Shown piece after piece: positions 12,998 to 55,345 of a stretch of 64,000 nt of DNA. Source of the DNA: Eledone cirrhosa (lineage: Eukaryota); NCBI GenBank assembly GCA_964016885.1, contig OZ024753.1, positions 32,240,001 to 32,304,000 on the forward strand, written 5' to 3'. Numbering within the stretch: the first letter of the stretch is position 1; every line of letters begins with the position of its first letter. The notes under the pieces were generated by a model, which saw only the letters and a program-made list of their open reading frames with translations, was not told where the DNA came from and made no database searches. Both the position numbers and the translations under genes were made by a program.

Positions 12998-15930
12998 GTT
13001 AAAGATGTACATCCATATATGTATACTGAAATACTAGTATGTATATGAATACACACACGTATACATATGTAGATGTACCAAGTTTTTTTCACTGGTCACT
13101 TTACTGTGAGTGGCCAGCTATTCTGTATGTAAACACACAGACAAACCGGTTTTTAGAGTCATACTGGTTTTTGAGGAAACACCTTTCCTCTATTCTCCAG
13201 AAAGCCAGACAAGGAATATTGAACTAGTTTCGTTGTTGTTACAACTCATCAGCAATATTTACCCATCTTCCGGCCTCTCTAGAGAATCGTAAAAGCACAT
13301 ATCGTTATATGCTTTTTCTATGAAAATTAGTAGTGGGCAGACTAATTTGCATAGAGTGTGAGTAAGTACCGGTTCAACGGAGACGATAAAAACAAATAAC
13401 GAAACGAAATTAAATTTCGTTTCGTTTGTAACTCACTTTTGTATGACTGACGCTTAAACAATTAAGTTAAAGATGTACATCCATATATGTATACTGAAAT
13501 ACTAGTATGTATATGAATACACACACGTATACATATGTAGATGTACCAAGTTTTTTCACTGGTCACTTTACTGTGAGTGGCCAGCTATTCTGTATGTAAA
13601 CACACAGACAAACCGGTTTTTAGAGTCATACTGGTTTTTGAGGAAACACCTTTCCTCTATTCTCCAGAAAGCCAGACAAGGAATATTGAACTAGTTTCGT
13701 TGTTGTTACAACTCATCAGCAATATTTACCCATCTTCCGGCCTCTCTAGAGAATCGTAAAAGCACATATCGTTATATGCTTTTTCTATGAAAATTAGTAG
13801 TGGGCAGACTAATTTGCATAGAGTGTGAGTAAGTACCGGTTCAACGGAGACGATAAAAACAAATAACGAAACGAAATTAAATTTCGTTTCGTTTGTAACT
13901 CACTTTTGTATGACTGACGCTTAAACAATTAAGTTAAAGATGTACATCCATATATGTATACTGAAATACTAGTATGTATATGAATACACACACGTATACA
14001 TATGTAGATGTACCAAGTTTTTTCACTGGTCACTTTACTGTGAGTGGCCAGCTATTCTGTATGTAAACACACAGACAAACCGGTTTTTAGAGTCATACTG
14101 GTTTTTGAGGAAACACCTTTCCTCTATTCTCCAGAAAGCCAGACAAGGAATATTGAACTAGTTTCGTTGTTGTTACAACTCATCAGCAATATTTACCCAT
14201 CTTCCGGCCTCTCTAGAGAATCGTAAAAGCACATATCGTTATATGCTTTTTCTATGAAAATTAGTAGTGGGCAGACTAATTTGCATAGAGTGTGAGTAAG
14301 TACCGGTTCAACGGAGACGATAAAAACAAATAACGAAACGAAATTAAATTTCGTTTCGTTTGTAACTCACTTTTGTATGACTGACGCTTAAACAATTAAG
14401 TTAAAGATGTACATCCATATATGTATACTGAAATACTAGTATGTATATGAATACACACACGTATACATATGTAGATGTACCAAGTTTTTTCACTGGTCAC
14501 TTTACTGTGAGTGGCCAGCTATTCTGTATGTAAACACACAGACAAACCGGTTTTTAGAGTCATACTGGTTTTTGAGGAAACACCTTTCCTCTATTCTCCA
14601 GAAAGCCAGACAAGGAATATTGAACTAGTTTCGTTGTTGTTACAACTCATCAGCAATATTTACCCATCTTCCGGCCTCTCTAGAGAATCGTAAAAGCACA
14701 TATCGTTATATGCTTTTTCTATGAAAATTAGTAGTGGGCAGACTAATTTGCATAGAGTGTGAGTAAGTACCGGTTCAACGGAGACGATAAAAACAAATAA
14801 CGAAACGAAATTAAATTTCGTTTCGTTTGTAACTCACTTTTGTATGACTGACGCTTAAACAATTAAGTTAAAGATGTACATCCATATATGTATACTGAAA
14901 TACTAGTATGTATATGAATACACACACGTATACATATGTAGATGTACCAAGTTTTTTCACTGGTCACTTTACTGTGAGTGGCCAGCTATTCTGTATGTAA
15001 ACACACAGACAAACCGGTTTTTAGAGTCATACTGGTTTAGTCTGCCCACTACTAATTTTCATAGAAAAAGCATATAACGATATGTGCTTTTACGATTCTC
15101 TAGAGAGGCCGGAAGATGGGTAAATATTGCTGATGAGTTGTAACAACAACGAAACTAGTTCAATATTCCTTGTCTGGCTTTCTGGAGAATAGAGGAAAGG
15201 TGTTTCCTCAAAAACCAGTATGACTCTAAAAACCGGTTTGTCTGTGTGTTTACATACAGAATAGCTGGCCACTCACAGTAAAGTGACCAGTGAAAAAACT
15301 TGGTACATCTACATATGTATACGTGTGTGTATTCATATACATACTAGTATTTCAGTATACATATATGGATGTACATCTTTAACTTAATTGTTTAAGCGTC
15401 AGTCATACAAAAGTGAGTTACAAACGAAACGAAATTTAATTTCGTTTCGTTATTTGTTTTTATCGTCTCCGTTGAACCGGTACTTACTCACACTCTATGC
15501 AAATTAGTCTGCCCACTACTAATTTTCATAGAAAAAGCATATAACGATATGTGCTTTTACGATTCTCTAGAGAGGCCGGAAGATGGGTAAATATTGCTGA
15601 TGAGTTGTAACAACAACGAAACTAGTTCAATATTCCTTGTCTGGCTTTCTGGAGAATAGAGGAAAGGTGTTTCCTCAAAAACCAGTATGACTCTAAAAAC
15701 CGGTTTGTCTGTGTGTTTACATACAGAATAGCTGGCCACTCACAGTAAAGTGACCAGTGAAAAAACTTGGTACATCTACATATGTATACGTGTGTGTATT
15801 CATATACATACTAGTATTTCAGTATACATATATGGATGTACATCTTTAACTTAATTGTTTAAGCGTCAGTCATACAAAAGTGAGTTACAAACGAAACGAA
15901 ATTTAATTTCGTTTCGTTATTTGTTTTTAT
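12998..15930. mobile_element. retrozyme-like tandem array A (467-bp monomer), head-to-head inverted
   Basis: ~4.4 near-identical monomers at 12998-15038, then ~1.9 inverted monomers at 15037-15930; one HHR per monomer; (TA)n on both sides. Confidence 0.9.
15123..15167 (+). ncRNA. type I hammerhead ribozyme, family A (also + 15590-15634; - 13215-13259, 13682-13726, 14149-14193, 14616-14660)
   Basis: AATATTG-CTGATGA-GTTGT(AACA)ACAAC-GAAA-CTA-GTT^-CAATATT; perfect stems I and II; palindromic AACTAGTT stem III. Confidence 0.92.
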
Positions 15931-17839: not shown

Positions 17840-19626
<1,787 letters not shown>

Positions 19627-19677
19627 AAATATTAAATAAATAATGAATAAACAATTTCTTATATTAAACAAAAAGAG

Positions 19678-19832
19678 TTCATTATTTAACGATCGTTTCT
19701 AGGATATATATGTGTTAGAATTGGTATGCATATTAAACAGATCTATGTACAAAATTATACAAAATTATACAAATTATCAAGATTAAATATACATACCAAA
19801 CACATATATACGCCGTCTTCAGAAATAATGAA
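19678..19832 (-). ncRNA. hammerhead ribozyme with long stem II (left-arm copy)
   Basis: Reverse complement of 30695-30849. Confidence 0.75.
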
Positions 19833-20777
19833 GTATATTTATTGATAATAACAACAATTCAAAATTTCAGGTCCGTTTGGGAACAAAAATTGACCAATGA
19901 AAACACAAAGGGTTAAATGCAGTTCGGTGTGTGTATATACATGTAAAACCCTTACACATATTTTACAAAAATGTATGTATAAAATTGTATACGCATACTA
20001 AAAGGATGGATGCGAACACAAAATTTCAAGGTTAATGTCTCTGTGAGTTATTGACACTTATGAAGTTAAGTATATAAATATATTTTTTCATACTCACACA
20101 TATCCGTACAATCACACATACACGCGCGTATATGCATAAATATACACATAACCACGAACATACAAACACACACACACCCCCACTCACATTTATATATGTG
20201 GATATAAAATCATAAGCACATGGATATTAATTCACTCACATAAAACACTGGCATACACATTTTCAGATCAAGATACAGAAATTAGGTGGGAGGGGGGGGG
20301 GGGTCAGTATTCAACGGTCTGAACAGACTGCCTAATATAAATGTATCTATAAACTAAGAAAAATAAAACAAATAAAACATAATAAATAAAACATTAAGGA
20401 GGAAAGAATAGAAAGAAGAACAGAAAAAAGAAAAAAGAAAAAAGAAAAAAGAAAAAAGAAATATATCAAGAAAATAAATATACACATATACACATACATA
20501 CACATACATATATATATATATATAATATATATATATATATACACACACACATATAAATATATATAAAAAATATATATAAAAAAAAACCTACATATATATA
20601 TACACACATAGACACTTACACATCCATACATAAATATAACACACATATATAAATACATACATACATATAACCACATCCACACTAAGAACATACATACACA
20701 CACATATATAAACATATACATATACACACATACATACATATACACATATACATACAAATACACATACACATATATAT

Positions 20778-20808
<31 letters not shown>

Positions 20809-21134
20809 CACATATATATACATACATATACATATACACGTACATATACACACACATATACATATAATCACACATACTATACAGACACAGATATATATAA
20901 CCACACACATACATGCAAATATATAACACTTACATACTAATATACATACAGATATACACATACATAGCTATATATACACACAAATATATACAGATTTACA
21001 TATATACATACAGACAAATACTTACGCATCTATATATCGGTATATCCATACTAACACCAACTACACTATCACACAACATAGAAATACAAAGAGAAAGGTA
21101 TATACCTATACACACATACATATACAAATAGAAA

Positions 21135-21184
<50 letters not shown>

Positions 21185-21211
21185 TACACATACATATATA
21201 TATACATATAT

Positions 21212-21261
<50 letters not shown>

Positions 21262-21513
21262 TACACATACAAATACACATACATATACATACAGATATAT
21301 ACACATACATACATGTACACACACACAGAAATATATACGCATACATACATACACACATACATATAAAGTCATACACACATATACATCTACACGAACATAC
21401 ACATACACATATATAAAGTATATATACACACACACACACACACGCAACACATACACACATACACATATATATAAAAAAATAAATAATAAAGATATATACA
21501 TATATATATATAT

Positions 21514-21558
<45 letters not shown>

Positions 21559-21930
21559 CATACACACACACCTAAATATACATACACATACATACATACA
21601 TAGACATACATGTACGTACATATACGTACATCGATATACATATATATATATATATACATACACACATAGACATATACATACATACACACACAACTTACAT
21701 ACACACATATATATACATGTATATTCATACATAGAATTAGAAATATAATCATACATACATATGCACTTACTTATAGTCATATATACCAATACATACGCAT
21801 CCATTTATGCGTATATACATAAAAAACACTACAACGTTACCTAACTCAGACATACAAATAAAATATTAATAAAAAGGCATATGTATATACATACACACAC
21901 GCATTAATAGAGATATATATATACACACAT

Positions 21931-22002
<72 letters not shown>

Positions 22003-22116
22003 ACTCATACATATACACATATATATATATATATATATATATACAAAGATACCTACACATTCATACCACCATAAATACACATACAAACACCCACATATAC
22101 ATATATATACACACAC

Positions 22117-22165
<49 letters not shown>

Positions 22166-22284
22166 AAAAACAGACATGCACATATATATATATATTTTTC
22201 TACACTCATATATAGACATATTATATACATATACATAACTTCACTTATACATGCATACACATAAGTTATATTATAATAATAAAA

Positions 22285-22317
<33 letters not shown>

Positions 22318-22346
22318 ACATATATATATATATATATATACATACC

Positions 22347-22394
<48 letters not shown>

Positions 22395-22454
22395 CAAACA
22401 CATACATACACATATACACACATATGAATATAGATATATATTCACACATAGACA

Positions 22455-22511
<57 letters not shown>

Positions 22512-23997
22512 ATATACACAGACACATATACACACTCACATATATATATCTGTGTGCATGCACACACACATATATACATACATACATATATATACACATA
22601 AACACATATATGTGCATACATGCACATACACACACATATATCACATAGATACGGAGATAGACATATAAATAGAGAGACATACATATATATACAACACACA
22701 TACACACACATACATACACACGCATATACATATACATATATATATACATATATATATTCCTATATATACACATAACATATATATATACACATATATACAC
22801 ATACATACACATATACGTACACACATTCACATACACATACATATATAGATGCATATATACATACATATACATACATACACACACTCATATATACACACAC
22901 AATCTTACATTCATATTTGCATGCACATATATGTATTTTTATATTTAGATATAAATACCCAAACCTATATAGACACCTACCTACATATATATTCATACAT
23001 AGACGCTTACAAATACAGATGATAATAGTATGGGGGAAAAGGGGGGGTTTGGAGAAGGGGATCAAAGTAAATATATGTTTCAAGAAACATAGAAAATTTT
23101 CCGTATCTTTATCCAATATATGTTTTTTTTACATATTTTCAGTGTTATAAAATACAACAAATTAAAACTAAGGCAAAATCTATGCATCTCAAAATAAACA
23201 AGTATACCATTAACTATATGTTAACTAAACCAAAGATAGTTAACATATTGATTTCTAAGGTGTAAATTAGTTAGGTTTATAATATTTGAAGCAGAATTTT
23301 GAAGTTAAATAGTAGTAGAGTATTAATTACAGTATAACTAAATTAAAGTTAATAACATTATGGTGTCAATATTAGGAAATGAAATTAGTAATAGGGAAAA
23401 AACAAATAAAATAAAATAAAGTAGTACATCGGTAGTAGAATATAAAATATAGGTTAACTAAATTAAAAATTATATATTTATTTCTATAGTATATGTTAAT
23501 TAGGTATACAATACATAAAGCAGATATTGTATTTCATCAATAGCATAATATAATTATATGCAAATAGAAATCAAAATTAATACGCATACATATACATATA
23601 CATACACATACACATATACACACATATACACACAAATATATATATATATATATATACATATATATACATATACATACACACACACATACACATACACATA
23701 CACATATACATATACATATCTTTTTCAAAAAATTGCATAGAATATATTAACTAGGTATATATCCAAAACACATCGCATTCTATGATTACATGACATTCTG
23801 CAATTCGTCTGTATAAGGATACTAATATTAAGCAAATTAAAATTAAATTTTTAGGTTGATTAAAACTAAAATCAAATTATAAATATATTTCTAAAATGTA
23901 TATTAATTAGGTCAATAATACTAAAAATTATTTCTCTGTCATTGGAACCTCCTTAAAAAACATACCAATACCTTCTAAGGATGACTTCTTACTCCTT

Positions 23998-26367
23998 ATG
24001 ATTCAGAAAACTAATAATTTTATCAGAAGGGTTAGATGGAGAGCCTACCACTTCGATAGAAAATCTATACAAGCAGATCGGAAATATATGTATGATTTCA
24101 ATACTTACAAGAATCCACCACACAACTTTTTACTTGAAGACTTCGAGAAAGACCTTTTTAATTTAATTAAACACCTCAAATTTAAAAAGTATAAATCCGT
24201 CTTTCAAAAGGACCTTGATTCTACCCTATTGGACCTAAAAAAGTCTAAAAAAATCCATGTCCACTCGGACAAAACTGGTAACTTGTATCATATGGACATT
24301 GAACATTATAACGAGTTCATATATAAAGAACTCAGAAAAAATTATAAAAAATCTAATAATGTGTCACTCACCAACATCAACAACAAAACACACAACATAG
24401 TAAAAAAACTAAACATTGAAGATAGAACTGAACCTTTGGCATTGAAAAGACCACACTTCAACCTGAAAGATCACAAATCTAACTTTAACTCAAATCCTTC
24501 TATTAGACTTATATGTCCTTCCAAATCAGATATTGGAATAATTAGCAAAAAAATTTTAGATAGAGTCATCCCACAAATAAAAAAACACGTTATTTTACCA
24601 CTCTGGGAAAACACCTCCCAGGTAATTAACTGGTTTAAAAATATTAGGTGTAAATCTTCTGCTTCTTTCCTACAATTTGATATAGATAATTACTATTCTT
24701 CTATATCACCTATACTCCTGAACAAAGCATTGATATTTGCTAAAAATAGATCTAACTTAACTTTGGATGACATTAACATTATTACACATGCTAGACTAAC
24801 ACTTATTGAATTTCAGAATGAATACTGGACCAGAAACACATACAGTAATCTTTTTGATATTACTATGGGTTCAAGTGATTCCGCCCAAATTACTGATCTT
24901 GTGGGCCTCTTTCTCCTTTTCAACATAAATGCCTCTTTTCCCCACCTCAAAGGTGGTTTATATCGTGATGACTGTCTTCTTCTTTCTAACAACCTTAGCC
25001 TTTCAGAAATTGAAAAAAACAAAAAACATATTAGAACTTTCCTTAAAGACTATTATAATCTTAATATTACTTTTGAAAAAACAAGTAAAGTAGTAAATTT
25101 CCTAGATATAACTTTAGATTTAGCTACGGGTATCTACCAACCTTACCATAAACCTAACCAAAACTTACATTACATACACTCACAATCTAATCACCCTAAA
25201 TCTATCCTTAAAAACCTTGCATATAATATATCACTTAGAATTTCTAACCTTTCTTCTAACCAAGATGTATTTGATAAAAATGCGACCTTCTATAACGAAG
25301 CTCTAGATAGAAGTGGCCACAAAAATAGATTAGAGTATATACCTTCTACTAAAAATACTGAAAGCATGCAACATAATATTACCAACAAACACCAAATGAA
25401 AAGTACACACCTAAATGCCACCCACACTATACCCCAAAATACCAAATCTTCTAATATAAAGTATAGTAACTCTCAAAAAACTACTCATCATACAACTCTA
25501 ATAAATATTAATAATAAAACTCCTAATAAAAAAGATAAAACACCTAAATCTAAAAATATAACTAAAAATAGTTGTGGTGAGATCATTAACATTAATCCTC
25601 CTAGTAAAAATCACGATACAACCTATAAAAATAATAAAAATAATAAACAACATAGAAACCGTAATAGACGGGTTACTTGGTATAATGCTCCTTTTAATTT
25701 ACAAGTTAAGGATAATATTGCTAAAAAATTTTTTTATATCCTTGAGAAAAACTTCCCGCCAAACCACAAATACCATCAAATCTTAAATAGGTCTACAGTT
25801 AAATTCTCATACTCTACAACAAATAACATAAAACAAAATATAAGTGCATATAATGCATATAAATGTAAGAAAACCATAACTATACCACCAGTACATCAAA
25901 TTAACCATAATATCTCCTCAAATACAGAATTAACGAAAGGATGTAACTGTAGAAACAAAGCAAACTGCCCATTAAAAGGGAATTGTCTTGTTAACAACAT
26001 AGTCTATAAATGTAATGTTAAAACTAAAGATTCTATTTGCTCATATATAGGAGCTACCTCTAACAATTTTAAGACAAGGTTTAATACCCACAAGCATAGT
26101 TTTAAAAATGCTGCACTGGCTAATACAACATCTCTAGCTGAAAAAATCAATAGTTATAAAAATAAGAATATAAAATATGATTTGACCTGGAGTGTGCTCA
26201 AAAGAGCCACCCCTTATCAAAATAATAGAAATGAATGTAGATTATGTTCCCAAGAACTATTTGAAATAATGAAGTCTAAGGATATCTTATTAAATAAACG
26301 ACAGGAATTAATTATATCGTGTAATCATAAACTAAAAAAAACATTTAAATATTATAAACCTAATTAA
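23998..26367 (+). CDS. Penelope-like RT plus GIY-YIG endonuclease (Naiad-type), 789 aa
   Basis: DKT, FDI..YYSSI, MG, YRDD, FLD, PYHKPN..SNHP; CxCx5C (CNCRNKANC); IVYKC..YIG; C-terminal CRLC; an in-frame SLKNIP motif lies just upstream of the first ATG. Confidence 0.93.
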   Translation: MIQKTNNFIRRVRWRAYHFDRKSIQADRKYMYDFNTYKNPPHNFLLEDFEKDLFNLIKHLKFKKYKSVFQKDLDSTLLDLKKSKKIHVHSDKTGNLYHMDIEHYNEFIYKELRKNYKKSNNVSLTNINNKTHNIVKKLNIEDRTEPLALKRPHFNLKDHKSNFNSNPSIRLICPSKSDIGIISKKILDRVIPQIKKHVILPLWENTSQVINWFKNIRCKSSASFLQFDIDNYYSSISPILLNKALIFAKNRSNLTLDDINIITHARLTLIEFQNEYWTRNTYSNLFDITMGSSDSAQITDLVGLFLLFNINASFPHLKGGLYRDDCLLLSNNLSLSEIEKNKKHIRTFLKDYYNLNITFEKTSKVVNFLDITLDLATGIYQPYHKPNQNLHYIHSQSNHPKSILKNLAYNISLRISNLSSNQDVFDKNATFYNEALDRSGHKNRLEYIPSTKNTESMQHNITNKHQMKSTHLNATHTIPQNTKSSNIKYSNSQKTTHHTTLININNKTPNKKDKTPKSKNITKNSCGEIININPPSKNHDTTYKNNKNNKQHRNRNRRVTWYNAPFNLQVKDNIAKKFFYILEKNFPPNHKYHQILNRSTVKFSYSTTNNIKQNISAYNAYKCKKTITIPPVHQINHNISSNTELTKGCNCRNKANCPLKGNCLVNNIVYKCNVKTKDSICSYIGATSNNFKTRFNTHKHSFKNAALANTTSLAEKINSYKNKNIKYDLTWSVLKRATPYQNNRNECRLCSQELFEIMKSKDILLNKRQELIISCNHKLKKTFKYYKPN

Positions 26368-28045
26368 CAACATTATTTTTGAAATTAATTTAATTTAAAT
26401 GTTAGTTAACCTATATATTTAATTTAATTAAAATTTTATTACAGATCAGAATATAAAATATTATGTAATCATAAATTGTGAAAAACCTTTAAATATTACT
26501 AATATATACTTAGTAATTTAATTTATAGATTAATTTTAATTTATTTAAACCTTTTATTATTTTTATTATAATTCTTTTACAGATAAAATATAACAAAATA
26601 ATATCGTGTATCCAATGACAGAGAAATAATTTTTAGTATTATTGACCTAATTAATATACATTTTAGAAATATATTTATAATTTGATTTTAGTTTTAATCA
26701 ACCTAAAAATTTAATTTTAATTTGCTTAATATTAGTATCCTTATACAGACGAATTGCAGAATGTCATGTAATCATAGAATGCGATGTGTTTTGGATATAT
26801 ACCTAGTTAATATATTCTATGCAATTTTTTGAAAAAGATATGTATATGTATATGTGTATGTGTATGTGTATGTGTGTGTGTATGTATATGTATATATATG
26901 TATATATATATATATATATATTTGTGTGTATATGTGTGTATATGTGTATGTGTATGTATATGTATATGTATGCGTATTAATTTTGATTTCTATTTGCATA
27001 TAATTATATTATGCTATTGATGAAATACAATATCTGCTTTATGTATTGTATACCTAATTAACATATACTATAGAAATAAATATATAATTTTTAATTTAGT
27101 TAACCTATATTTTATATTCTACTACCGATGTACTACTTTATTTTATTTTATTTGTTTTTTCCCTATTACTAATTTCATTTCCTAATATTGACACCATAAT
27201 GTTATTAACTTTAATTTAGTTATACTGTAATTAATACTCTACTACTATTTAACTTCAAAATTCTGCTTCAAATATTATAAACCTAACTAATTTACACCTT
27301 AGAAATCAATATGTTAACTATCTTTGGTTTAGTTAACATATAGTTAATGGTATACTTGTTTATTTTGAGATGCATAGATTTTGCCTTAGTTTTAATTTGT
27401 TGTATTTTATAACACTGAAAATATGTAAAAAAAACATATATTGGATAAAGATACGGAAAATTTTCTATGTTTCTTGAAACATATATTTACTTTGATCCCC
27501 TTCTCCAAACCCCCCCTTTTCCCCCATACTATTATCATCTGTATTTGTAAGCGTCTATGTATGAATATATATGTAGGTAGGTGTCTATATAGGTTTGGGT
27601 ATTTATATCTAAATATAAAAATACATATATGTGCATGCAAATATGAATGTAAGATTGTGTGTGTATATATGAGTGTGTGTATGTATGTATATGTATGTAT
27701 ATATGCATCTATATATGTATGTGTATGTGAATGTGTGTACGTATATGTGTATGTATGTGTATATATGTGTATATATATATGTTATGTGTATATATAGGAA
27801 TATATATATGTATATATATATGTATATGTATATGCGTGTGTATGTATGTGTGTGTATGTGTGTTGTATATATATGTATGTCTCTCTATTTATATGTCTAT
27901 CTCCGTATCTATGTGATATATGTGTGTGTATGTGCATGTATGCACATATATGTGTTTATGTGTATATATATGTATGTATGTATATATGTGTGTGTGCATG
28001 CACACAGATATATATATGTGAGTGTGTATATGTGTCTGTGTATAT

Positions 28046-28100
<55 letters not shown>

Positions 28101-28160
28101 TGTCTATGTGTGAATATATATCTATATTCATATGTGTGTATATGTGTATGTATGTGTTTG

Positions 28161-28204
<44 letters not shown>

Positions 28205-28233
28205 GGTATGTATATATATATATATATATATGT

Positions 28234-28266
<33 letters not shown>

Positions 28267-28385
28267 TTTTATTATTATAATATAACTTATGTGTATGCAT
28301 GTATAAGTGAAGTTATGTATATGTATATAATATGTCTATATATGAGTGTAGAAAAATATATATATATATGTGCATGTCTGTTTTT

Positions 28386-28426
<41 letters not shown>

Positions 28427-28540
28427 GTGTGTGTATATATATGTATATGTGGGTGTTTGTATGTGTATTTATGGTGGTATGAATGTGTAGGTATCTTTGT
28501 ATATATATATATATATATATATGTGTGTATATGTATGAGT

Positions 28541-28610
<70 letters not shown>

Positions 28611-28982
28611 ATGTGTGTATATATATATCTCTATTAATGCGTGTGTGTATGTATATACATATGCCTTTTTATTAATATTTTATTTGTATGTCTGAGTTAG
28701 GTAACGTTGTAGTGTTTTTTATGTATATACGCATAAATGGATGCGTATGTATTGGTATATATGACTATAAGTAAGTGCATATGTATGTATGATTATATTT
28801 CTAATTCTATGTATGAATATACATGTATATATATGTGTGTATGTAAGTTGTGTGTGTATGTATGTATATGTCTATGTGTGTATGTATATATATATATATA
28901 TGTATATCGATGTACGTATATGTACGTACATGTATGTCTATGTATGTATGTATGTGTATGTATATTTAGGTGTGTGTGTATG

Positions 28983-29027
<45 letters not shown>

Positions 29028-29278
29028 ATATATATATATATGTATATATCTTTATTATTTATTTTTTTATATATATGTGTATGTGTGTATGTGTTGCGTG
29101 TGTGTGTGTGTGTATATATATCTTTATATATGTGTATGTGTATGTTCGTGTAGATGTATATGTGTGTATGACTTTATATGTATGTGTGTATGTATGTATG
29201 CGTATATATTTCTGTGTGTGTGTACATGTATGTATGTGTATATATCTGTATGTATATGTATGTGTATTTGTATGTGTA

Positions 29279-29326
<48 letters not shown>

Positions 29327-29353
29327 ATATATGTATATATATATGTATGTGTA

Positions 29354-29405
<52 letters not shown>

Positions 29406-29731
29406 TTTCTATTTGTATATGTATGTGTGTATAGGTATATACCTTTCTCTTTGTATTTCTATGTTGTGTGATAGTGTAGTTGGTGTTAGTATGGATATAC
29501 CGATATATAGATGCGTAAGTATTTGTCTGTATGTATATATGTAAATCTGTATATATTTGTGTGTATATATAGCTATGTATGTGTATATCTGTATGTATAT
29601 TAGTATGTAAGTGTTATATATTTGCATGTATGTGTGTGGTTATATATATCTGTGTCTGTATAGTATGTGTGATTATATGTATATGTGTGTGTATATGTAC
29701 GTGTATATGTATATGTATGTATATATATGTG

Positions 29732-29762
<31 letters not shown>

Positions 29763-29987
29763 ATATATATGTGTATGTGTATTTGTATGTATATGTGTAT
29801 ATGTATGTATGTGTGTATATGTATATGTTTATATATGTGTGTGTATGTATGTTCTTAGTGTGGATGTGGTTATATGTATGTATGTATTTATATATGTGTG
29901 TATATTTATGTATGGATGTGTAAGTGTCTATGTGTGTATATATATATGTAGGTTTTTTTTTATATATATTTTTTATATATATTTATA

Positions 29988-30036
<49 letters not shown>

Positions 30037-30694
30037 ATGTATGTGTATATGTGTATATTTATTTTCTTGATATATTTCTTTTTTCTTTTTTCTTTTTTCT
30101 TTTTTCTGTTCTTCTTTCTATTCTTTCCTCCTTAATGTTTTATTTATTATGTTTTATTTGTTTTATTTTTCTTAGTTTATAGATACATTTATATTAGGCA
30201 GTCTGTTCAGACCGTTGAATACTGACCCCCCCCCCCTCCCACCTAATTTCTGTATCTTGATCTGAAAATGTGTATGCCAGTGTTTTATGTGAGTGAATTA
30301 ATATCCATGTGCTTATGATTTTATATCCACATATATAAATGTGAGTGGGGGTGTGTGTGTGTTTGTATGTTCGTGGTTATGTGTATATTTATGCATATAC
30401 GCGCGTGTATGTGTGATTGTACGGATATGTGTGAGTATGAAAAAATATATTTATATACTTAACTTCATAAGTGTCAATAACTCACAGAGACATTAACCTT
30501 GAAATTTTGTGTTCGCATCCATCCTTTTAGTATGCGTATACAATTTATACATACATTTTTGTAAAATATGTGTAAGGGTTTTACATGTATATACACACAC
30601 CGAACTGCATTTAACCCTTTGTGTTTTCATTGGTCAATTTTTGTTCCCAAACGGACCTGAAATTTTGAATTGTTGTTATTATCAATAAATATAC

Positions 30695-30849
30695 TTCATT
30701 ATTTCTGAAGACGGCGTATATATGTGTTTGGTATGTATATTTAATCTTGATAATTTGTATAATTTTGTATAATTTTGTACATAGATCTGTTGAATATGCA
30801 TACCAATTCTAACACATATATATCCTAGAAACGATCGTTAAATAATGAA
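30695..30849 (+). ncRNA. type I hammerhead ribozyme with ~116-nt stem II
   Basis: TTCATTATTT-CTGAAGA-[30712-30827]-GAAA-CGATC-GTT^-AAATAATGAA; 10-bp perfect stem I; AACGATCGTT palindrome. Confidence 0.78.
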
Positions 30850-31035
30850 CTCTTTTTGTTTAATATAAGAAATTGTTTATTCATTATTTATTTAATATTT
30901 TATCTTGTACTCTGTATACCGTTTATCTTTCACCGAAAGTGGTTTTTCATTACATCTCTTCTTTCCATGATATCCGGAATACATTGAGTTCTTCATACGG
31001 ATTGGACACTACCGTAAACTCTTGGTAGATTTATC

Positions 31036-31287
<252 letters not shown>

Positions 31288-39100: not shown

Positions 39101-39343
39101 CAGAAAAAAACTAAGAGAAGGGGAAGGAAAGGCGATATACACCGAGTTGGTAGTTGTAGTTTGCTGATCGCACTTAAGTATCCATTTATTACGATAAGCA
39201 AGGTACTGGCTTGTAGTGTGTGTGTGTTTGGGGGGGGGGGGGGTATAGTTAGGAAGTAGTTATTGAGTGAAATTAGTTAGCGAGAAAGTGGTGTAGTAGT
39301 CTCGGGTCCATATTATGTTAAGTTACCATATTATGTTAAGTTA

Positions 39344-39530
39344 AGAGGCGGTGGATTGGCAGTATCGGTAGAAGGTCGGACGCCATGCTTTCCAGCATAG
39401 TTACGTCCCTTTACGATCTGAGTTCAAATCCCGCCGAGGTTGACTTTGCCTTTCATCCTTACGGGGTCGATAAAATAAAGTACCAGTAATGCACTGGGTA
39501 ATTGCTGGCCTTGTGCCTAAAGTAGAAACA
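39344..39530 (+). mobile_element. full-length tRNA-derived SINE with TSD
   Basis: A-box TGGCAGTATCGG, B-box GTTCAAATCC, Meta-like central domain; TSD ATTATGTTAAGTTA at 39330-39343 and 39531-39544. Confidence 0.9.
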
Positions 39531-40608
39531 ATTATGTTAAGTTACTTTTATAGTGAGAAAATGTAGCCTTCAGTTTGTGGATGCAGTATAACGATCGTTC
39601 GATTCTGTCATTTAGTAAGTTGTTTTTAGATTTCAAGATATGAAAGAGTGCATAATCTGCAGTACTTTAATCCACTCGGATATGCACTAGCGCTGGATAA
39701 TTTATCCCATTTTAAGGTGAACTGCCGGTTGTATTCACGGTGTTACTAGGTCTTATTAACGAGTGTGGTTACATAATGGTGTTCAGGATGTTTAATCGAA
39801 AATCAATGACGATACCAGCGTGATTAAAAGGAGGTAGTGGTAGACTCGACGTAATATCATTTCTGGTCATTTGATTCGAATAAATAACTACCAATTTGCG
39901 CATAGCATGACTAGGCTGTGTAACTACTAAAGAAACATTTGTAAGCACTCGGAATAAATTACCTTTTTATGATGTCTACCTGTATTATTAATCATTCTTC
40001 ATATATATATATATATATACATAAAAACATATATATACATATATAAATATATTTATATATGTACATACATACATATGCACAGACACACATATATTCATAT
40101 ATTTATGATTAATTCAATAGATTCAGTAGTAATAATTCCTATTACATATATAATACAGATCAATTACAAATCTTTCTCAGATCTTATATGTTATTCAGTT
40201 CGTGTTTTATTGTATTCTACAAGCGAAAAATTTCAAACGTCATTATTAGAATAATTCATTCTAAAAGTATTAAACTATAGTTTTCGCCTACATCGAGTAA
40301 CCCGATTATTATTATAATATCAGAAAATGACTGAGAGTCTGCGATGAATTAGTTTTATTACGTGACAGGTTTCTGAAATCATAAAAGGCCGTGTAAATAT
40401 ATATTTAGAAATAAAATTCATAAACGAAAGCAATAAATTTGGAGTAGTACACACACACATGCTAAAACACACGCATACACACACATATGCATATATCTCT
40501 TCGGTTTAAATCTCTCTATGCTCTGTCTTTTAAATACACACAATATACTAACATATGCATATTCACACAAATACACAGACAAAAGCACCCCCTACTATAT
40601 ATATATAT

Positions 40609-46465: not shown

Positions 46466-46563
46466 CCTACTCGTTACTATTACCCACTCTACTACCCTAA
46501 GTCTTGAGTACTTTGGTGCGTTATGGTCCACCTGGTTCCTTACCACATTTTCTTCGTTATATT

Positions 46564-46598
<35 letters not shown>

Positions 46599-46599
46599 T

Positions 46600-46690
<91 letters not shown>

Positions 46691-46707
46691 TTATATATAT
46701 ATTTATA

Positions 46708-46786
<79 letters not shown>

Positions 46787-46853
46787 TTATATATATATAT
46801 ATATTTATATATATTTATATATATATATATATTTATATATATATTTATATATA

Positions 46854-47009
<156 letters not shown>

Positions 47010-47074
47010 TATATATATATATATTTATATATATGTATATTTATATATATATATTTATATATATGTATATATTT

Positions 47075-49836
47075 ATAAATTGAAACAAAATGAAAACGAA
47101 ATTTCATTTCTCACTCTTAGTATGGCACTTACTTAAATGTAAGTATGCATGTGTACGTACATACATATATGTATACAGACGTACAGTAGCATGCACATAT
47201 ATATATATATATACATATATACATACATATGCATACAGGTACACATACATATATGCACGTATCAGTTTAGCGGCGCTAACGTCGCTTTGTTCGTTTGTAA
47301 ACAAACTGAACAGCCTGAATTTATGCCATACGGTGTTAAGGCAACCACGTCACCTTTTTGTTCAACACTGACACAGGAACGATGTACTAGTTTCAAGCTT
47401 GTTAGCTATCATCAGCACCGTTTACCCATCTGCCAGATAGTTGAACGTTCGAAAGTATATACTTTCCTTATGAAAATTAACGGCTGAGCAGCCTAATTTG
47501 CATATTGAGTGAGTTAAATCGGTCAGGCATACCGAAAACGATAAATTGAAACAAAATGAAAACGAAATTTCATTTCTCACTCTTAGTATGGCACTTACTT
47601 AAATGTAAGTATGCATGTGTACGTACATACATATATGTATACAGACGTACAGTAGCATGCACATATATATATATATATACATATATACATACATATGCAT
47701 ACAGGTACACATACATATATGCACGTATCAGTTTAGCGGCGCTAACGTCGCTTTGTTCGTTTGTAAACAAACTGAACAGCCTGAATTTATGCCATACGGT
47801 GTTAAGGCAACCACGTCACCTTTTTGTTCAACACTGACACAGGAACGATGTACTAGTTTCAAGCTTGTTAGCTATCATCAGCACCGTTTACCCATCTGCC
47901 AGATAGTTGAACGTTCGAAAGTATATACTTTCCTTATGAAAATTAACGGCTGAGCAGCCTAATTTGCATATTGAGTGAGTTAAATCGGTCAGGCATACCG
48001 AAAACGATAAATTGAAACAAAATGAAAACAAAATTTCATTTCTCACTCTTAGTATGGCACTTACTTAAATGTAAGTATGCATGTGTACGTACATACATAT
48101 ATGTATACAGACGTACAGTAGCATGCACATATATATATATATATACATATATACATACATATGTATACAGGTACACATACATATATGCACGTATCAGTTT
48201 AGCGGCGCTAACGTCGCTTTGTTCGTTTGTAAACAAACTGAAGAGCCTGAATCATAAATTCAGGCTGTTCAGTTTGTTTACAAACGAACAAAGCGACGTT
48301 AGCGCCGCTAAACTGATACGTGCATATATGTATGTGTACCTGTATACATATGTATGTATATATGTATATATATATATATATGTGCATGCTACTGTACGTC
48401 TGTATACATATATGTATGTACGTACACATGCATACTTACATTTAAGTAAGTGCCATACTAAGAGTGAGAAATGAAATTTCGTTTTCATTTTGTTTCAATT
48501 TATCGTTTTCGGTATGCCTGACCGATTTAACTCACTCAATATGCAAATTAGGCTGCTCAGCCGTTAATTTTCATAAGGAAAGTATATACTTTCGAACGTT
48601 CAACTATCTGGCAGATGGGTAAACGGTGCTGATGATAGCTAACAAGCTTGAAACTAGTACATCGTTCCTGTGTCAGTGTTGAACAAAAAGGTGACGTGGT
48701 TGCCTTAACACCGTATGGCATAAATTCAGGCTGTTCAGTTTGTTTACAAACGAACAAAGCGACGTTAGCGCCGCTAAACTGATACGTGCATATATGTATG
48801 TGTACCTGTATGCATATGTATGTATATATGTATATATATATATATATGTGCATGCTACTGTACGTCTGTATACATATATGTATGTACGTACACATGCATA
48901 CTTACATTTAAGTAAGTGCCATACTAAGAGTGAGAAATGAAATTTCGTTTTCATTTTGTTTCAATTTATCGTTTTCGGTATGCCTGACCGATTTAACTCA
49001 CTCAATATGCAAATTAGGCTGCTCAGCCGTTAATTTTCATAAGGAAAGTATATACTTTCGAACGTTCAACTATCTGGCAGATGGGTAAACGGTGCTGATG
49101 ATAGCTAACAAGCTTGAAACTAGTACATCGTTCCTGTGTCAGTGTTGAACAAAAAGGTGACGTGGTTGCCTTAACACCGTATGACATAAATTCAGGCTGT
49201 TCAGTTTGTTTACAAACGAACAAAGCGACGTTAGCGCCGCTAAACTGATACGTGCATATATGTATGTGTACCTGTATGCATATGTATGTATATATGAATA
49301 TATATATATATATGTGCATGCTACTGTACGTCTGTATACATATATGTATGTACGTACACATGCATACTTACATTTAAGTAAATGCCATACTAAGAGTGAG
49401 AAATGAAATTTCGTTTTCATTTTGTTTCAATTTATCGTTTTCGGTATGCCTGACCGATTTAACTCACTCAATATGCAAATTAGGCTGCTCAGCCGTTAAT
49501 TTTCATAAGGAAAGTATATACTTTCGAACGTTCAACTATCTGGCAGATGGGTAAACGGTGCTGATGATAGCTAACAAGCTTGAAACTAGTACATCGTTCC
49601 TGTGTCAGTGTTGAACAAAAAGGTGACGTGGTTGCCTTAACACCGTATGGCATAAATTCAGGCTGTTCAGTTTGTTTACAAACGAACAAAGCGACGTTAG
49701 CGCCGCTAAACTGATACGTGCATATATGTATGTGTACCTGTATGCATATGTATGTATATATGTATATATATATATATATGTGCATGCTACTGTACGTCTG
49801 TATACATATATGTATGTACGTACACATGCATACTTA
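47075..49836. mobile_element. retrozyme-like tandem array B (466-bp monomer), head-to-head inverted
   Basis: ~2.5 monomers at 47075-48252, then ~3.4 inverted monomers at 48253-49836; HHR per monomer; within (TA)n. Confidence 0.9.
48622..48666 (+). ncRNA. type I hammerhead ribozyme, family B (also + 49088-49132, 49554-49598; - 47378-47422, 47844-47888)
   Basis: AACGGTG-CTGATGA-tAGCT(AACA)AGCTt-GAAA-CTA-GTA^-CATCGTT. Confidence 0.9.
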
Positions 49837-51228
<1,392 letters not shown>

Positions 51229-54200
51229 TTCGTTTCCAGGCGAACACTTGGATTTCACGTTCGTAAACATAGATTGTGCCAAACAGGCTTGGCAGTACCA
51301 AATATGTGTATATATATATACATACAGCTAAACTAATTAGAAATAACAACCAAATTTCTCTCATATTTCGTCCTGCCGTCTCATATAAGGACATGATATA
51401 TTAGATAATATAGACAAACATATCCCTTAAAAAAGTTGGGATTATCACGACTACAATGCATTTGATCTTTGGATTGTTCACTCAAAGATTATAGATGACA
51501 ATGAAGAAGCCTCTATATATTTGTTTAGTCGACCTCCAAGAAATAGAAGCAAAAACACTTCCTTAAATTACGATATACAGTCTCAAACACAGTACAAACA
51601 TATTAAATAATGTAACCCTAAGTTCACTATTACTGTAGTGAAACGAGAGATATAACGATTGGAATAATCTTCGTCATAGACCTACACAATTGTGGCAGAC
51701 GTGGGGCTACACAATCAGAAAGTGAAAGTCTGCCCCAACCCAGGAGGCTTATTAGACCAGTGATTATTCTGGTTTCATCAGTTAAGCAAGTAAGATTACA
51801 AAACTTCCTCAGGACGAGACGCCTATCCTTCGCAGAGTTAATCCCCAGTTGATACTCATATATGAGTGACTGGGAAGGAACAATGAGCAGCATATATGAG
51901 GCTTTATTAATCTAAAGAAGCCTTTCTTTAAAATATTAAAAGAAAATCGTTACTTCATTTGTTCTTTTGCTTCGGTATAAAATTGGGTGACCATTAATGA
52001 AACATATGTTACCCAAGGTAGTAATCATTCCCCCAGTGCAGGAATTGAACTCACGACACCGTAACCAATAGGTCGTGTTACTTCACGAACAACCAGAAAG
52101 AAAATATACATATGCATTTTCAGATGATTGCCCCGAGATCGAGAGAGAAATGAAAGGTGTGGCTTTGTTGTATTATATGTCGGAATATTGCACTGCCTTT
52201 TTAAAGGATCAACACGTAAAGCTGACTTGTGTATTGGGTATTATAATGATGACATCTCACAGCATTGAAAAACTTACTGTGATATAAACAAACAAAACTT
52301 GGCATATAAAACTGGCAGTATCTCAACAGCATTCCTTCGGGCACCTTGATAATTTTGTGTAACGATTCCACTGTACTGTTCCTTTGTGTAAATATTGATC
52401 TCATATCTCAGTATATTGATCCGTGGTGTTAATACATGTAATCCTATTGATTGCATATATTGAATAGTGGAATTTCACTTCCCATTTACATATGTTTTGT
52501 AAAGTAGCAGTTTATCAATGCATGATATTTTCTTAACGTATCACAGTAAAGAAAGTATATTACATGGAAGATATTGCTCATAAACGGGGCATTATTAAGC
52601 TAAAGAAACCGTTATGTAATATATTAAAACCAAATCATCACTGTAGTTGTTCTGCTTATAAAATTGGTTGATTATTAATAAAACATATGTTGTTCAAATT
52701 ACCTGAATTTGATGGCATTCACCGCTGTTTCCACTTCGGTAAAATTTATTCTAAATGATTTTATATATTTAAAAAAAAACATGGTGTGAAATATGAATAA
52801 ACTCACAGCTTTCACAAGTTTCGTAACTAATATCTTACACTAACTCGACGTAATATATTTATATTTCAAGAGTAGCATCTTGAAAGTTATGAAATATCTT
52901 TACACTTCCAACCAATAATATTTTCATATGTAATCTTCTGAGAAGAAGAGAACCATAGATTCGAAAAGCATACAGCAAAGTATTCCAAACGATGTTCTAA
53001 CGACCTTGCCAATTCGCTGCCTGATTTAACATTAACGTTTCGAAAAAATATTATTTTCTGTTAATATTTCAGTGATTGGATTGTTGCCATGTTGCGGCAC
53101 TTCTGTCAAGGGGTTTACATCGTTTTCAATACTGTGTTACAGTAAACTTCTTCTTAACACCGACACCAGGCTACTGCGTATCATTAGACAAATCTAATTT
53201 GTTGAACATATTCAAACTAGTTTACCGGTCTGAGTGTAACCCATGATCTTTTATTTATTTCTCATTTTCCACCACTAATCTGTAAACCAATGCAATAAAA
53301 TAATGGACACTGTTCTTTCCGCCATCATTAAGATACACACTGTATTTGTGTAATGAATGTGTGTGAGTGCGTGTGTTTATATAAATATGTTGTTCTATTT
53401 GTTCAAGCAATACGTTGGCCATTATCAGTAAACAGAGCCATATATTTCTTTGGCTTGATTAATCAAATAAATTTCTATTTCTACTGCAAAGAACTACAAC
53501 CATTCAAATCCATAGTCCCTTATCTCATCATGTCTTTAAATGAAGAAACAACACATCAAAAACAGAAGCTAGAGAGATAATGATAGAATGAATGGTACAA
53601 TAGTGATTCTGTAAAGAATCGATGTTTAGTTTGCTAGTGCATACTTTCTTCCTCGCTGAAATCCACTCGAACGATTACAATTTCAAGTAACAATGATAAT
53701 AGCAAGAACGGCCTTGTTAGAATTTATTACTTGCAATCTAGTTCTCTTTTATGTGAAATCAATCGAAGGTGTATATCTTAACTAACTTCACTTCTAAGAC
53801 TTCTGTTAATGTGTATTATACTTGCATTATATTACAAACTAGAAGTGGCAATCAGATGAAAACAGTTAGCCCATAAAGGTCATCTCCTTCCTCCCCTCCC
53901 AACCATAAAGACATTGTCGTCACCTAATAATTTTGTTTTTAACGATAGAAATATAGTGATCGGAGGAAATTAAATTGTCTGATTTTATGTAAAGTTTTGT
54001 CTGATAGGAGAACATTTAAAAGGTCAAATAATGTTTATGTAAATGTCGGTTCTGCTAGAGAACTGCCAAAAATCTCTATTCCTGACTGATAAGTGAAACA
54101 ATTTGAGTTTAGGCTTCAATAAAGTCATACTAAATTTAAGATTTTAGTTTCACATATGTGTCTATGGCGAGGTCTACAAACGTCAAAAGACGGTGATTTT

Positions 54201-54840
54201 AGTATTTGAGATTCCCCAAAGTATATTTAGCATCACAATCAGTTTTGCAGATACCATACGAATAGATATTGGCAATGGAAATTATCTACGTCTAAAGGAC
54301 TATAAAAATCTAAACATATCAAGTTATAAAAGCAATAAGAAAATGGAGAGAGAGAATGAGAGAGAAAGAGAGAGAGAGAGGGGGGGGGGGGAGAGAGAGA
54401 GAGAGAGAAGGAAGGAGAGAGAAGGAGGGAGAGATACAAAGTACAGCTGCAATCGGTGTCAAAATAGGTTTAGAATCTTCCAGTTTCGAAGTTCTATAAT
54501 CATTTTATTCTGTCGATAATGCCTAATGCTTCCCAACACAACATCTCAGGACTTGATCATACAACTCACGTTCTTATTCGAAATTTGTAATCTTTCAAAC
54601 TTTGGTTTCGATTTTTCATTTCAAACGTTTTGTATGACAATTTTGTGAGTTGACTGAGTATCTGCAGCATTGCAGAGTAATTAAGAAGTAGCACCTCAAT
54701 CATAGGTTCTCAGATTTAATGCTACTAAGTAGCATCATGGGCAAGTGTCATTTACCATAACTTCAAGTCGATCCAAGCCTGGTGAATGATATTTAGTTGA
54801 TGGAAACTGCTTAAACGCCTGCTGCATTGACTATGCCAAT

Positions 54841-55345
54841 AATTGTGTCTAATTGAGGCACAAGGCCAGCAATTACCCAGTGCAGTACTGGTACTTTATT
54901 TTATCGACCCCGTAAGGATGAAAGGCAAAGTCAACCACGGCGGGATTTGAACTCAGATCGTAAAGGGACGTAACTATGCTGGAAAGTATGGGGTCCGACC
55001 CTCTACTGATACTGCCAATCTACCTACTATGCCAATAATGGTGTCTAATTGAGGCACACATTCAACGATTTGTAGGAATAGAGAACCCGATTACACGGAA
55101 TCCAGTACGTGGCTGATACTTTATTTTATCGACCTCGGAGGGATTTGAACACAGAAAGTAAAGAGTCGAACAAATACTGCTAAGCATTTTGTCCGACGAC
55201 CTAACGATTCTGCCAACCCACCGCCCTAACTATATATTTATGCTATAATTGTTTCTACTTTTGACACAAGGTCAGCAATGTGAAGGGAAGGGGAAAGTCG
55301 ATTAATACTTTATATTATCGATCCGGTAAGGGTGAAAGGCCCCGA
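54841..55345 (-). mobile_element. nested cluster of three tRNA-derived SINEs
   Basis: Young copy ~54862-55025, older copy ~55040-55228, partial copy ~55246-55345. Confidence 0.8.

What the first reader, a model, noticed from the sequence alone, without database searches (positions are those of the whole stretch)
47075..49836. Second, homologous retrozyme family (466 bp) whose covariation supports the ribozyme structure
Seen: family B is strongly diverged from A but keeps the monomer length (466 vs 467), CTGATGA/GAAA, CTAG stem III, loop II AACA and the flanks AGATGGGTAA..CCT. Its stems change compensatorily: stem I AATATTG/CAATATT becomes AACGGTG/CATCGTT, and stem II GTTGT/ACAAC becomes AGCT/AGCT. 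Inference: selection acts on RNA structure and size. The conserved GG-UAA bulge and AACA loop would be the loop-bulge tertiary contact typical of natural type I HHRs.
Basis: partly seen in the sequence, partly recalled or inferred. Interest (0 to 1): 0.9.

Follow-up and report, generated by a model that had tools for sequence, protein, structure and literature searches.

The report
Second two-armed Penelope-copied hammerhead retrozyme
This 466-base repeat is a second lineage of a predicted self-cutting (hammerhead) RNA element with over ten thousand copies in this animal genome; it keeps the predicted fold of its 60%-identical sister family, and both sit in the DNA as back-to-back arms that end at the same two fixed sites, likely because a Penelope-type jumping-gene enzyme copies one small RNA circle from both sides of a DNA break.

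Summary
Family B is real: 466-bp units, about 60% identical to family A, 10,739 exact cores genome-wide. In stems I and II, 7 of 11 pairs changed on both sides and 6 still pair (null P about 0.001), but this is mostly one deep branch. Loop II is AAYA, not invariant, and older B subfamilies are 420-449 nt, so equal size looks coincidental. The stronger signal is architecture. The array is two head-to-head arms in (TA)n. So are 49 of 79 sampled loci, and 36 of 37 classifiable pairs end once at site X and once at site Y, homologous in A and B. That is the Penelope 'tail' footprint, shared by a Hydra-like Penelope element in this window. Arms run through the ribozyme cut site (78 of 98), and sense A>G changes are fixed across whole arrays, pointing to a circular monomer template. 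Cleavage and expression are untested. The scan noted this architecture before on other DNA of this genome. Verdict: a new variant of metazoan non-LTR retrozymes.

The parts
47075..48252 (-). Left arm, 2.53 units; 5' end at monomer position 65, 3' end at site Y (position 310) joined to (TA)n
   Evidence: position 1 = first base after the predicted cut
48253..49836 (+). Right arm, 3.40 units; 5' end at position 60, 3' end at site X (about 245) joined to (TA)n
48240..48265 (.). Head-to-head centre, near-symmetric (65/60); the two innermost units share one variant at position 153
48660..49125 (+). One cut-to-cut monomer (466 nt); circular MFE -151.4 kcal/mol, z -6.8 against 30 shuffles (opposite strand -117.2, z -4.4)
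48608..48676 (+). Type I hammerhead: distal stem I, GG (48618-9) and UAA bulge (48620-2), stem I 48623-8 with 48660-5, core from 48629, U·U 48636/48649, stem II AGCU/AGCU, loop AACA 48641-4, stem III of 1 bp plus palindromic CUAG, predicted cut after GUA at 48659
49095..49125 (+). Second hammerhead core of the right arm
49561..49591 (+). Third hammerhead core of the right arm
47851..47881 (-). Hammerhead core of the left arm
47385..47415 (-). Hammerhead core of the left arm
48899..48914 (+). Small predicted hairpin holding site X (positions 240-255); A has a hairpin at the homologous place (223-236)
48905..48969 (+). 'Tail' between X and Y (about 59-65 nt in B, about 69 in A), present on only one arm end of an insertion
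48957..48971 (+). U-rich, predicted unpaired loop holding site Y (positions 301-311)
49007..49014 (+). ATGCAAAT, inside the longest block identical between A and B apart from one 13-nt TA-rich match; candidate octamer promoter element (motif identity recalled) or protein-binding hairpin
   Evidence: in 62 of 65 B-lineage and 57 of 76 A-lineage monomers
46558..47077 (.). (TA)n target tract, left
49835..51229 (.). (TA)n target tract, right
12998..15930 (.). Family A array: minus arm 12998-15038 (4.37 units, X end), plus arm 15037-15930 (1.91 units, Y end), in (TA)n
19623..31038 (.). Autonomous Penelope-like element with the same build: 4.3-kb inverted arm ending without tail, plus arm with 818-aa RT/GIY-YIG frame (23911-26367), its own hammerhead-like motif (about 30696-30850) and a 136-nt tail; candidate class of driver, not shown to be the driver

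Best explanation
Family B is a non-coding tandem repeat with a hammerhead motif in every unit, inserted into (TA)n as two head-to-head arms that end at two fixed sites, and it is most likely a non-LTR retrozyme whose RNA is predicted to cut itself into monomers, likely circularises, and is likely copied back into DNA by a Penelope-type reverse transcriptase/endonuclease priming from both strands of a cut target. Steps: (1) an array is transcribed (inferred; internal ATGCAAAT is a candidate promoter element). (2) Neighbouring hammerheads pair their palindromic ACUAGU into a shared stem III and cut after GUA (inferred from the published dimer model); the lone monomer, with a 1-bp stem III and U·U at the base of stem II, would cut poorly, which protects the circle. 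(3) The monomer is ligated (inferred from published retrozymes). (4) A Penelope-type enzyme cuts (TA)n; one strand primes at site Y, the other at site X about 60-70 nt upstream (ends shown; enzyme inferred). (5) Both syntheses run through the cut site, for up to 30 units, and the cDNA ends join at unrelated positions with 0-9 nt overlap in most loci (shown as structure; rolling-circle synthesis inferred). Selection acts on the fold of the whole RNA, including the X and Y sites, rather than on its exact size.
For: Head-to-head arms in 49 of 79 loci (31 of 53 B, 18 of 26 A), no adjacent tail-to-tail pair; 36 of 37 pairs with both ends classifiable are one X plus one Y (P 2.8e-10 against independent ends; the other 12 pairs have at least one end that was truncated, interrupted or lost in a TA run). 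107 of 117 X/Y ends are followed by (TA)4 or more. X and Y fall at homologous structural places in A and B, and separate circular consensus folds of the two lineages show the same order of helices (compared by eye). Inverted 5'-truncated copy, tail on one end and microsatellite target are the published Penelope signature (PMC8557442; PMC3846280); two adjacent internal RT starts define the tail in vitro and both strands are cut and extended (PMC11167929). The window's Penelope element and two other copies examined each have one tail-less and one tailed end (3 of 3). 78 of 98 arms cross the cut site; 5' ends show no excess at it (4 of 98 against 6.3 expected). The two arms of a locus are each other's closest or joint-closest match in 18 of 27 loci. 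Changes fixed in all units of one locus are A>G on the sense strand in 10 of 25 cases against 20 of 265 unit-private changes (Fisher P 3.5e-5), e.g. two adjacent A>G in all 19 units of both arms of L198. Compensatory change.
Against: No cleavage, expression or circle was observed. B lacks G10.1-C11.1 and has the weak stem III together; the published axolotl motifs have one or the other. In the circular ensemble the outer three stem I pairs of B have probabilities of only 0.18-0.28. 8 of 9 Xenopus retrozymes tested in the 2026 preprint did not cleave. No sequence similarity between A or B and the two Penelope-like elements compared beyond low-complexity TA matches, so the driver is unidentified. 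A>G against its strand control T>C among fixed changes is only 10 to 4 (P 0.058), and 9 of 27 loci have a closer arm elsewhere. A linear read-through transcript of an already homogeneous array would give similar products. L186 shows variants recurring in several units, a sign of DNA-level amplification after insertion. 30 of 79 loci show no adjacent second arm. The window's own B array has a symmetric centre with a mirrored variant that this model does not predict. Loci are the first-listed matches on contig C1, selected by core pattern.
Confidence: 0.68

Rival explanations
1. Same Penelope two-site priming, but the template is a linear, uncut multi-unit transcript; the ribozyme acts rarely or late and no circle is needed.
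For: Ribozyme mutants did not affect insertion by the anole Penelope protein in vitro, and unprocessed RNA was the dominant substrate (PMC11167929). Weak B ribozyme anatomy. A shared RNA 5' end would explain the symmetric centre and mirrored variant of the window's array.
Against: Locus-specific changes, enriched for sense A>G, are fixed in every unit of both arms, which needs a one-unit bottleneck; centre positions of the two arms are mostly unrelated (6 of 49 within 15 nt, P 0.11); the core and stems are conserved.
Confidence: 0.18
2. Only short seeds are retrotransposed; the multi-unit arms grew afterwards as satellite DNA by slippage or unequal exchange, which also homogenised them (model favoured in the 2026 preprint's discussion).
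For: 10.64898/2026.07.22.740005 discussion; recurring variants in L186; TA-run expansion inside old B units (Spearman 0.91 with length).
Against: A seed shorter than one unit cannot become an in-phase tandem; both arms exceed one unit in 13 of 49 loci and cross the cut in 30 of 49; the window's A array has no variant in 6.3 units across an inversion.
Confidence: 0.07
3. One priming event, then the cDNA folds back and copies itself, giving the inverted arm (self-priming, as proposed for rotifer Penelope palindromes).
For: PMC3846280 discussion; symmetric centres in 6 of 49 loci including this one; mirrored variant at position 153.
Against: The X arm is longer in 14 and the Y arm in 22 of 36 loci (counted by hand), by up to 30 units; a copy cannot much exceed its template, and it would have to stop at exactly the other site; variants are otherwise not mirrored (shared variants in 2 of 12 loci).
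Confidence: 0.05
4. The inverted arms are long-read fold-back chimeras of the assembly.
For: No contig of the four runs laid bridges this locus's centre (uninformative, the junction is locus-specific).
Against: A read chimera would mirror the flank and end both arms at the same site; here the ends differ (X and Y), lengths differ and arms carry private variants; the build is the published Penelope one.
Confidence: 0.02

Closest known systems
Metazoan non-LTR retrozymes (Cervera and de la Peña 2020, PMC7229834; parts 2-4 of 6 read, supplement not readable; Li, Clavereau and Pollet 2026, 10.64898/2026.07.22.740005; parts 1-3 of 5 read)
   Same: Short low-GC non-coding tandem units, one type I hammerhead each, thousands of copies, stable predicted circle, co-occurrence with Penelope-like elements, which both papers propose as the driver.
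   Different: Neither text as read describes head-to-head arms, two fixed 3' ends, a tail or (TA)n targeting (PMC7229834 main text: 0 hits for inverted, orientation, microsatellite, tail). Unit is slightly above the 150-450 bp of the first paper but within the 51-972 bp of the second. Expression and cleavage were shown there, not here.
Axolotl HHR_Amex1 and HHR_Amex2 (PMC7229834)
   Same: Amex1: 1-bp helix III with palindromic tetraloop. Amex2: U·U at the base of helix II. Both cleave weakly as monomers (6% and 22%) and much better as dimers; two ribozyme families share one genome.
   Different: B combines both weak features and has GUA; A has G-C at 10.1/11.1 with GUU or GUC.
Penelope-like elements with endonuclease: inverted copy and tail (PMC8557442, passages and Hydra section read; PMC3846280, passages; PMC11167929, parts 1-2 of 4 read)
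   Same: Inverted 5'-truncated copy, tail at one end, AT-rich or (TA)n target, two adjacent internal RT start sites, both strands extended.
   Different: No ORF; tail about 59-69 nt rather than 30-40; starts are U-rich with TA microhomology rather than an AC-rich loop; both arms multi-unit; the strict one-X-one-Y rule is not stated in the passages read.
Newt satellite 2 (seen only as cited in PMC2220036; the original PMC308520 is not held)
   Same: Hammerhead-bearing tandem repeat with an internal snRNA-type promoter; ATGCAAAT here resembles the octamer of such promoters (recalled).
   Different: Promoter activity is untested here; the motif also lies in a conserved RNA hairpin.

Membership tests
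Type I hammerhead ribozyme | Core CUGANGA...GAAA...UH around a three-way junction with open stem I | tested here: met
   H17 is A, U or C in 72 of 73 rows; in run X2 the only core-region variants at 10% or more are N7 and one loop base
Type I hammerhead ribozyme | Helix I about 6 bp and helix II about 4 bp, with compensatory change | tested here: met
   98.6% of stem I cells paired; 3 of 6 stem I and 3 of 5 stem II pairs with double changes; null P 8.7e-4
Type I hammerhead ribozyme | G10.1-C11.1 pair | tested here: not met
   U·U in B, C·A in a subfamily, G-C only in A; precedent for U·U in axolotl Amex2
Type I hammerhead ribozyme | Short helix III with palindromic loop (dimer-type) | tested here: met
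   ACUAGU in all rows, but the retrieval patterns required it; no variant there in run X2; description in PMC4209133 (passages)
Type I hammerhead ribozyme | Loop II to stem I bulge tertiary contact | tested here: inconclusive
   GGUAW in 71 of 73 rows, loop AAYA in 70 of 73; similar to the Rfam HH9 layout; conservation without covariation shows no contact
Type I hammerhead ribozyme | Rfam gathering score | tested here: not met
   B 18.5 bits (E 0.016), A 36 bits (E 3.6e-8), threshold 52 for the HH9 model
Type I hammerhead ribozyme | Self-cleavage | not testable with these tools
   needs an in vitro assay
Metazoan non-LTR retrozyme | Tandem units of a few hundred bp, hammerhead in each, dispersed at high copy | tested here: met
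Metazoan non-LTR retrozyme | Non-coding, no LTR, GC under 50% | tested here: met
   only low-complexity stop-to-stop frames (114 aa per unit, antisense); GC 0.325 in 48001-50000; PBS/PPT not searched
Metazoan non-LTR retrozyme | Expressed as monomeric linear and circular RNA | not testable with these tools
   no RNA holder listed
Penelope-mobilised non-autonomous element | Inverted 5'-truncated copy adjacent at the 5' end | tested here: met
   49 of 79 loci
Penelope-mobilised non-autonomous element | Tail at one end only (two start sites) | tested here: met
   36 of 37
Penelope-mobilised non-autonomous element | Microsatellite target | tested here: met
   107 of 117 ends
Penelope-mobilised non-autonomous element | Sequence homology to the terminal repeat of an autonomous partner | tested here: inconclusive
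   none against the two Penelope-like families and two mini-elements compared; many other families exist in the genome and were not compared
Hydra clade of Penelope-like elements (the 818-aa neighbour) | C-terminal GIY-YIG, RWK, DKT, CxCX5C, CxxC and CxH motifs, (TA)n target | tested here: met
   RWR, DKT, CxCX5C, CxxC, CxH found against the list in PMC8557442; Atlas look-alikes carry HTH_animal, GIY-YIG, RVT_1; Pfam scan of the protein itself gave nothing
Hydra clade of Penelope-like elements (the 818-aa neighbour) | Placement in the RT phylogeny; length generally under 3 kb | not tested
   no tree built; tandem spacing is about 6.7 kb, longer than described

The most novel reading that the evidence does not exclude
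A and B are two long-separated lineages of one satellite RNA of Penelope elements whose whole circular fold, not just the ribozyme, is a conserved landing pad: a hairpin (X) and a U-rich loop (Y) each start one subunit of a Penelope RT dimer, so every insertion is a twin rolling-circle copy of a single edited RNA circle. The A/B comparison then maps the minimal cis-element for Penelope reverse transcription and explains the long-unexplained inverted-copy-plus-tail build of Penelope insertions.
Probability: 0.45. Interest if true: 0.8.

Novelty: new variant of a known kind. Interest (0 to 1): 0.57.

Why it matters
That Penelope enzymes mobilise animal retrozymes through a circular RNA is proposed in the papers read but not shown, and how Penelope insertions get an inverted copy and a one-sided tail is named there as open. 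Here two retrozyme lineages 40% diverged carry the full Penelope footprint at homologous sites of a shared fold, next to an intact, recently amplified Penelope family. This gives a 466-nt template, two predicted start sites and candidate enzymes for a direct in vitro test. The covariation itself is confirmatory: it supports an ordinary dimer-type hammerhead.

Tried and rejected
DNA search of G000 with 141 bases found nothing because common words are skipped; patterns were used instead. Rfam at gathering level: none in the window; miRNA-family hits on the TA-rich hairpin are compositional. Other stem II lengths with the same stem III: 94 and 51 matches; of the 50 fetched, those similar to A or B are indel variants, and the rest had no A/B similarity and no second core nearby, so no third lineage was found for the covariation test. 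Expression: no RNA holder listed; laid runs are contigs only and show neither cut nor circle; none bridges the array centre. PDB search and Pfam scan of the 818-aa frame were empty. No partner element found by sequence. Selection on size rejected (the position of A in the tree is weakly supported, 0.68, the nesting of the 466-nt form is strong, 0.98-1.0). Fold-back as general route rejected. Rows dropped: 29 of 102 distinct cores were left out of alignment A1: the 19 retrieved by a pattern that forces a stem II mutation, and 10 cut by a junction or shifted by an indel. TA-rich positions and arm ends were masked. In one search the window's monomers were pooled under one label and L169 was mislabelled B; ranges quoted are unaffected. 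Literature: 'retrozyme' with 'head-to-head' gave 0 papers; searches listed no title or abstract start describing two-armed retrozymes (listings only, except the papers named as read); a search with a guessed host group gave nothing relevant. The supplement of PMC7229834 (too large) and those of the bioRxiv preprint (closed) could show such structures.

Full report
Observation. The stretch 47075-49836 holds 466-bp units between two (TA)n tracts. It is two arms: 47075-48252 on the minus strand (2.53 units) and 48253-49836 on the plus strand (3.40 units), joined at their 5' ends. Each unit has CUGAUGA, a stem-loop, GAAA, CUAG, UA and a stem I partner; the predicted cut follows 48659. Family A (12998-15930, 467 bp) is homologous: 58% over ungapped columns in a pairwise alignment with 35 gap columns, 63% in a multiple alignment. 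The genome holds 10,739 exact B cores and 9,305 A-lineage cores, with 0 for reversed controls. Rfam gives sub-threshold Hammerhead_HH9 matches only.

Covariation. I aligned 73 of 102 distinct core regions. On a 20-pair structure 94.0% of cells pair, against 82.4% for shuffles and 34-48% for slid partners; 8 pairs have double changes, which is not more than the shuffles give. Cells count sequences, and most reflect the single A/B split. Treating that split alone, the 11 pairs of stems I and II, fixed beforehand by the core, show 7 double changes, 6 still paired, and no one-sided change (P 8.7e-4 if the 14 changes fell at random). Within lineages, circular consensus folds give 8 double-changed pairs of 140 in B and 2 of 158 in A. 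Loop II is AAYA and the bulge GGUAW: compatible with a tertiary contact, not evidence of one. In run X2, which my patterns did not select, the only frequent variants between 48629 and 48659 are N7 and the third loop base.

Size. A-lineage monomers are 466-470 nt in nearly all loci; B-lineage monomers run from 420 to 586, tracking an internal TA run. Older subfamilies are 420-449 nt, and the 466-nt form is nested among them. The match of 466 and 467 is best read as coincidence.

Architecture. I fetched all 52 clusters among the first 100 listed B cores and 25 A-lineage clusters from the first-listed matches and mapped arms. With the two window arrays, 49 of 79 loci have adjacent head-to-head arms and none adjacent tail-to-tail. 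Arm 3' ends fall at X (B 243-256, A 222-236) or Y (B 301-311, A 300-305) in 121 of 140 cases, windows that cover about 5% of the unit. Of 37 pairs with both ends classified, 36 are one X and one Y, 1 is X/X. 107 of 117 such ends run into (TA)n. X lies in a small predicted hairpin and Y in a U-rich loop at homologous places of both folds, and the helices of the two lineages follow the same order round the circle. Arm 5' ends are spread evenly (KS P 0.21), with no excess at the cut site, and 78 of 98 arms cross it.

Penelope link. An inverted 5'-truncated copy, a tail on one end and microsatellite targets are the published marks of Penelope-like elements, and Hydra-clade families insert into (TA)n (PMC8557442; PMC3846280). 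In vitro, an anole Penelope protein cuts and extends both strands and starts at two adjacent internal sites that bound the tail (PMC11167929). The window itself holds such an element at 19623-31038: an 818-aa frame with RWR, DKT, CxCX5C, YIG, CxxC and CxH, at least 131 copies 99-100% identical over 300 aa, a hammerhead-like motif, and one tail-less plus one 136-nt tailed end in 3 of 3 insertions examined. It shares no unique sequence with A or B, and related families at 31-58% identity flank several loci, so the actual driver is open.

Template. The two arms of a locus are identical over unmasked positions in 13 of 27 loci and closest or joint closest to each other in 18 of 27. Two adjacent A>G are fixed in 19 units across both arms of L198. 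This fits one RNA monomer, possibly edited, copied many times. It is small-sample evidence and does not exclude a linear transcript of a homogeneous array.

Mechanism. Shown: structure of insertions, fixed ends, conserved motifs. Inferred: transcription, dimer-dependent cleavage (PMC4209133; PMC7229834), ligation, and twin priming by a Penelope enzyme on a circle. GUA occurs in natural hammerheads (PMC1636495, passages). Fold-back is rejected as the general route because either arm can be the longer (X in 14, Y in 22 of 36), though this window's array has a symmetric centre and one mirrored variant that remain unexplained.

Standing. It works like, and by the testable features is, a metazoan non-LTR retrozyme; circular RNA and cleavage are untested and the G10.1-C11.1 pair is absent. 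The two-armed, two-site build was not found in print, with the supplements unseen. The scan itself noted it before for 310-, 422- and 467-nt families of this genome (unchecked notes, read after my). What this finding adds is that the two start sites and the whole fold are shared by lineages 40% apart.

Noticed in passing
window 19623-31038: Intact-looking Hydra-like Penelope element, 818-aa frame (830 aa in full copies), unit about 6.7 kb, tandem and head-to-head copies 99-100% identical at many places; hammerhead-like motif with a very long stem II and palindromic ACGAUCGU stem III.
   Followed up: partly
window 4959-5427 and 6078-6528: Two small head-to-head palindromes in (TA)n with a hammerhead-like CUGAUGA...GAAA motif in each arm and one longer end: probably 3' ends of another Penelope family.
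   Followed up: partly
window 31290-33565: Broken second Penelope-like element, also in opposed orientation, with a CUGAAGA...GAAA motif at 33377; many 95-98% identical relatives.
   Followed up: partly
window 6807-9500, 16127-16513, 16793-17840: Fragments of other reverse-transcriptase elements (RVT_1 hits), several abutting (TA)n tracts.
   Followed up: no
L083 7011-7573 and L069 661-1843: An A-lineage insertion sits in (CAT)n instead of (TA)n, and a B arm is interrupted by (ATC)n: a second target preference or driver may exist.
   Followed up: no
L084-L085 (G000:C1:5738000-5752750): One arm of about 30.7 units (14 kb) at 99% identity opposite an arm of 0.74 unit.
   Followed up: partly
L186: Variants recur in alternate or several units of a 15-unit arm, suggesting DNA-level duplication after insertion or a dimer template.
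   Followed up: partly
L139-L163, L175, L176, L182, L183: Single, diverged CUGAUGA-N(9-19)-GAAACUAGU motifs unrelated to A or B, far above the reversed control; probably decayed ends of older hammerhead elements.
   Followed up: partly
window 48420-48790 in runs X1-X6: The repeat is held by runs under four organism labels; X2 has thousands of variant contigs, X5 a few at low depth, X1 one unrelated piece, X6 none laid.
   Followed up: partly
window 39343-39535, 54839-55024, 57869-58066, 59203-59393, 60262-60466, 1312-1455, 58705-59036: A dispersed repeat of about 190 bp in both orientations, one copy pair forming a palindrome.
   Followed up: no
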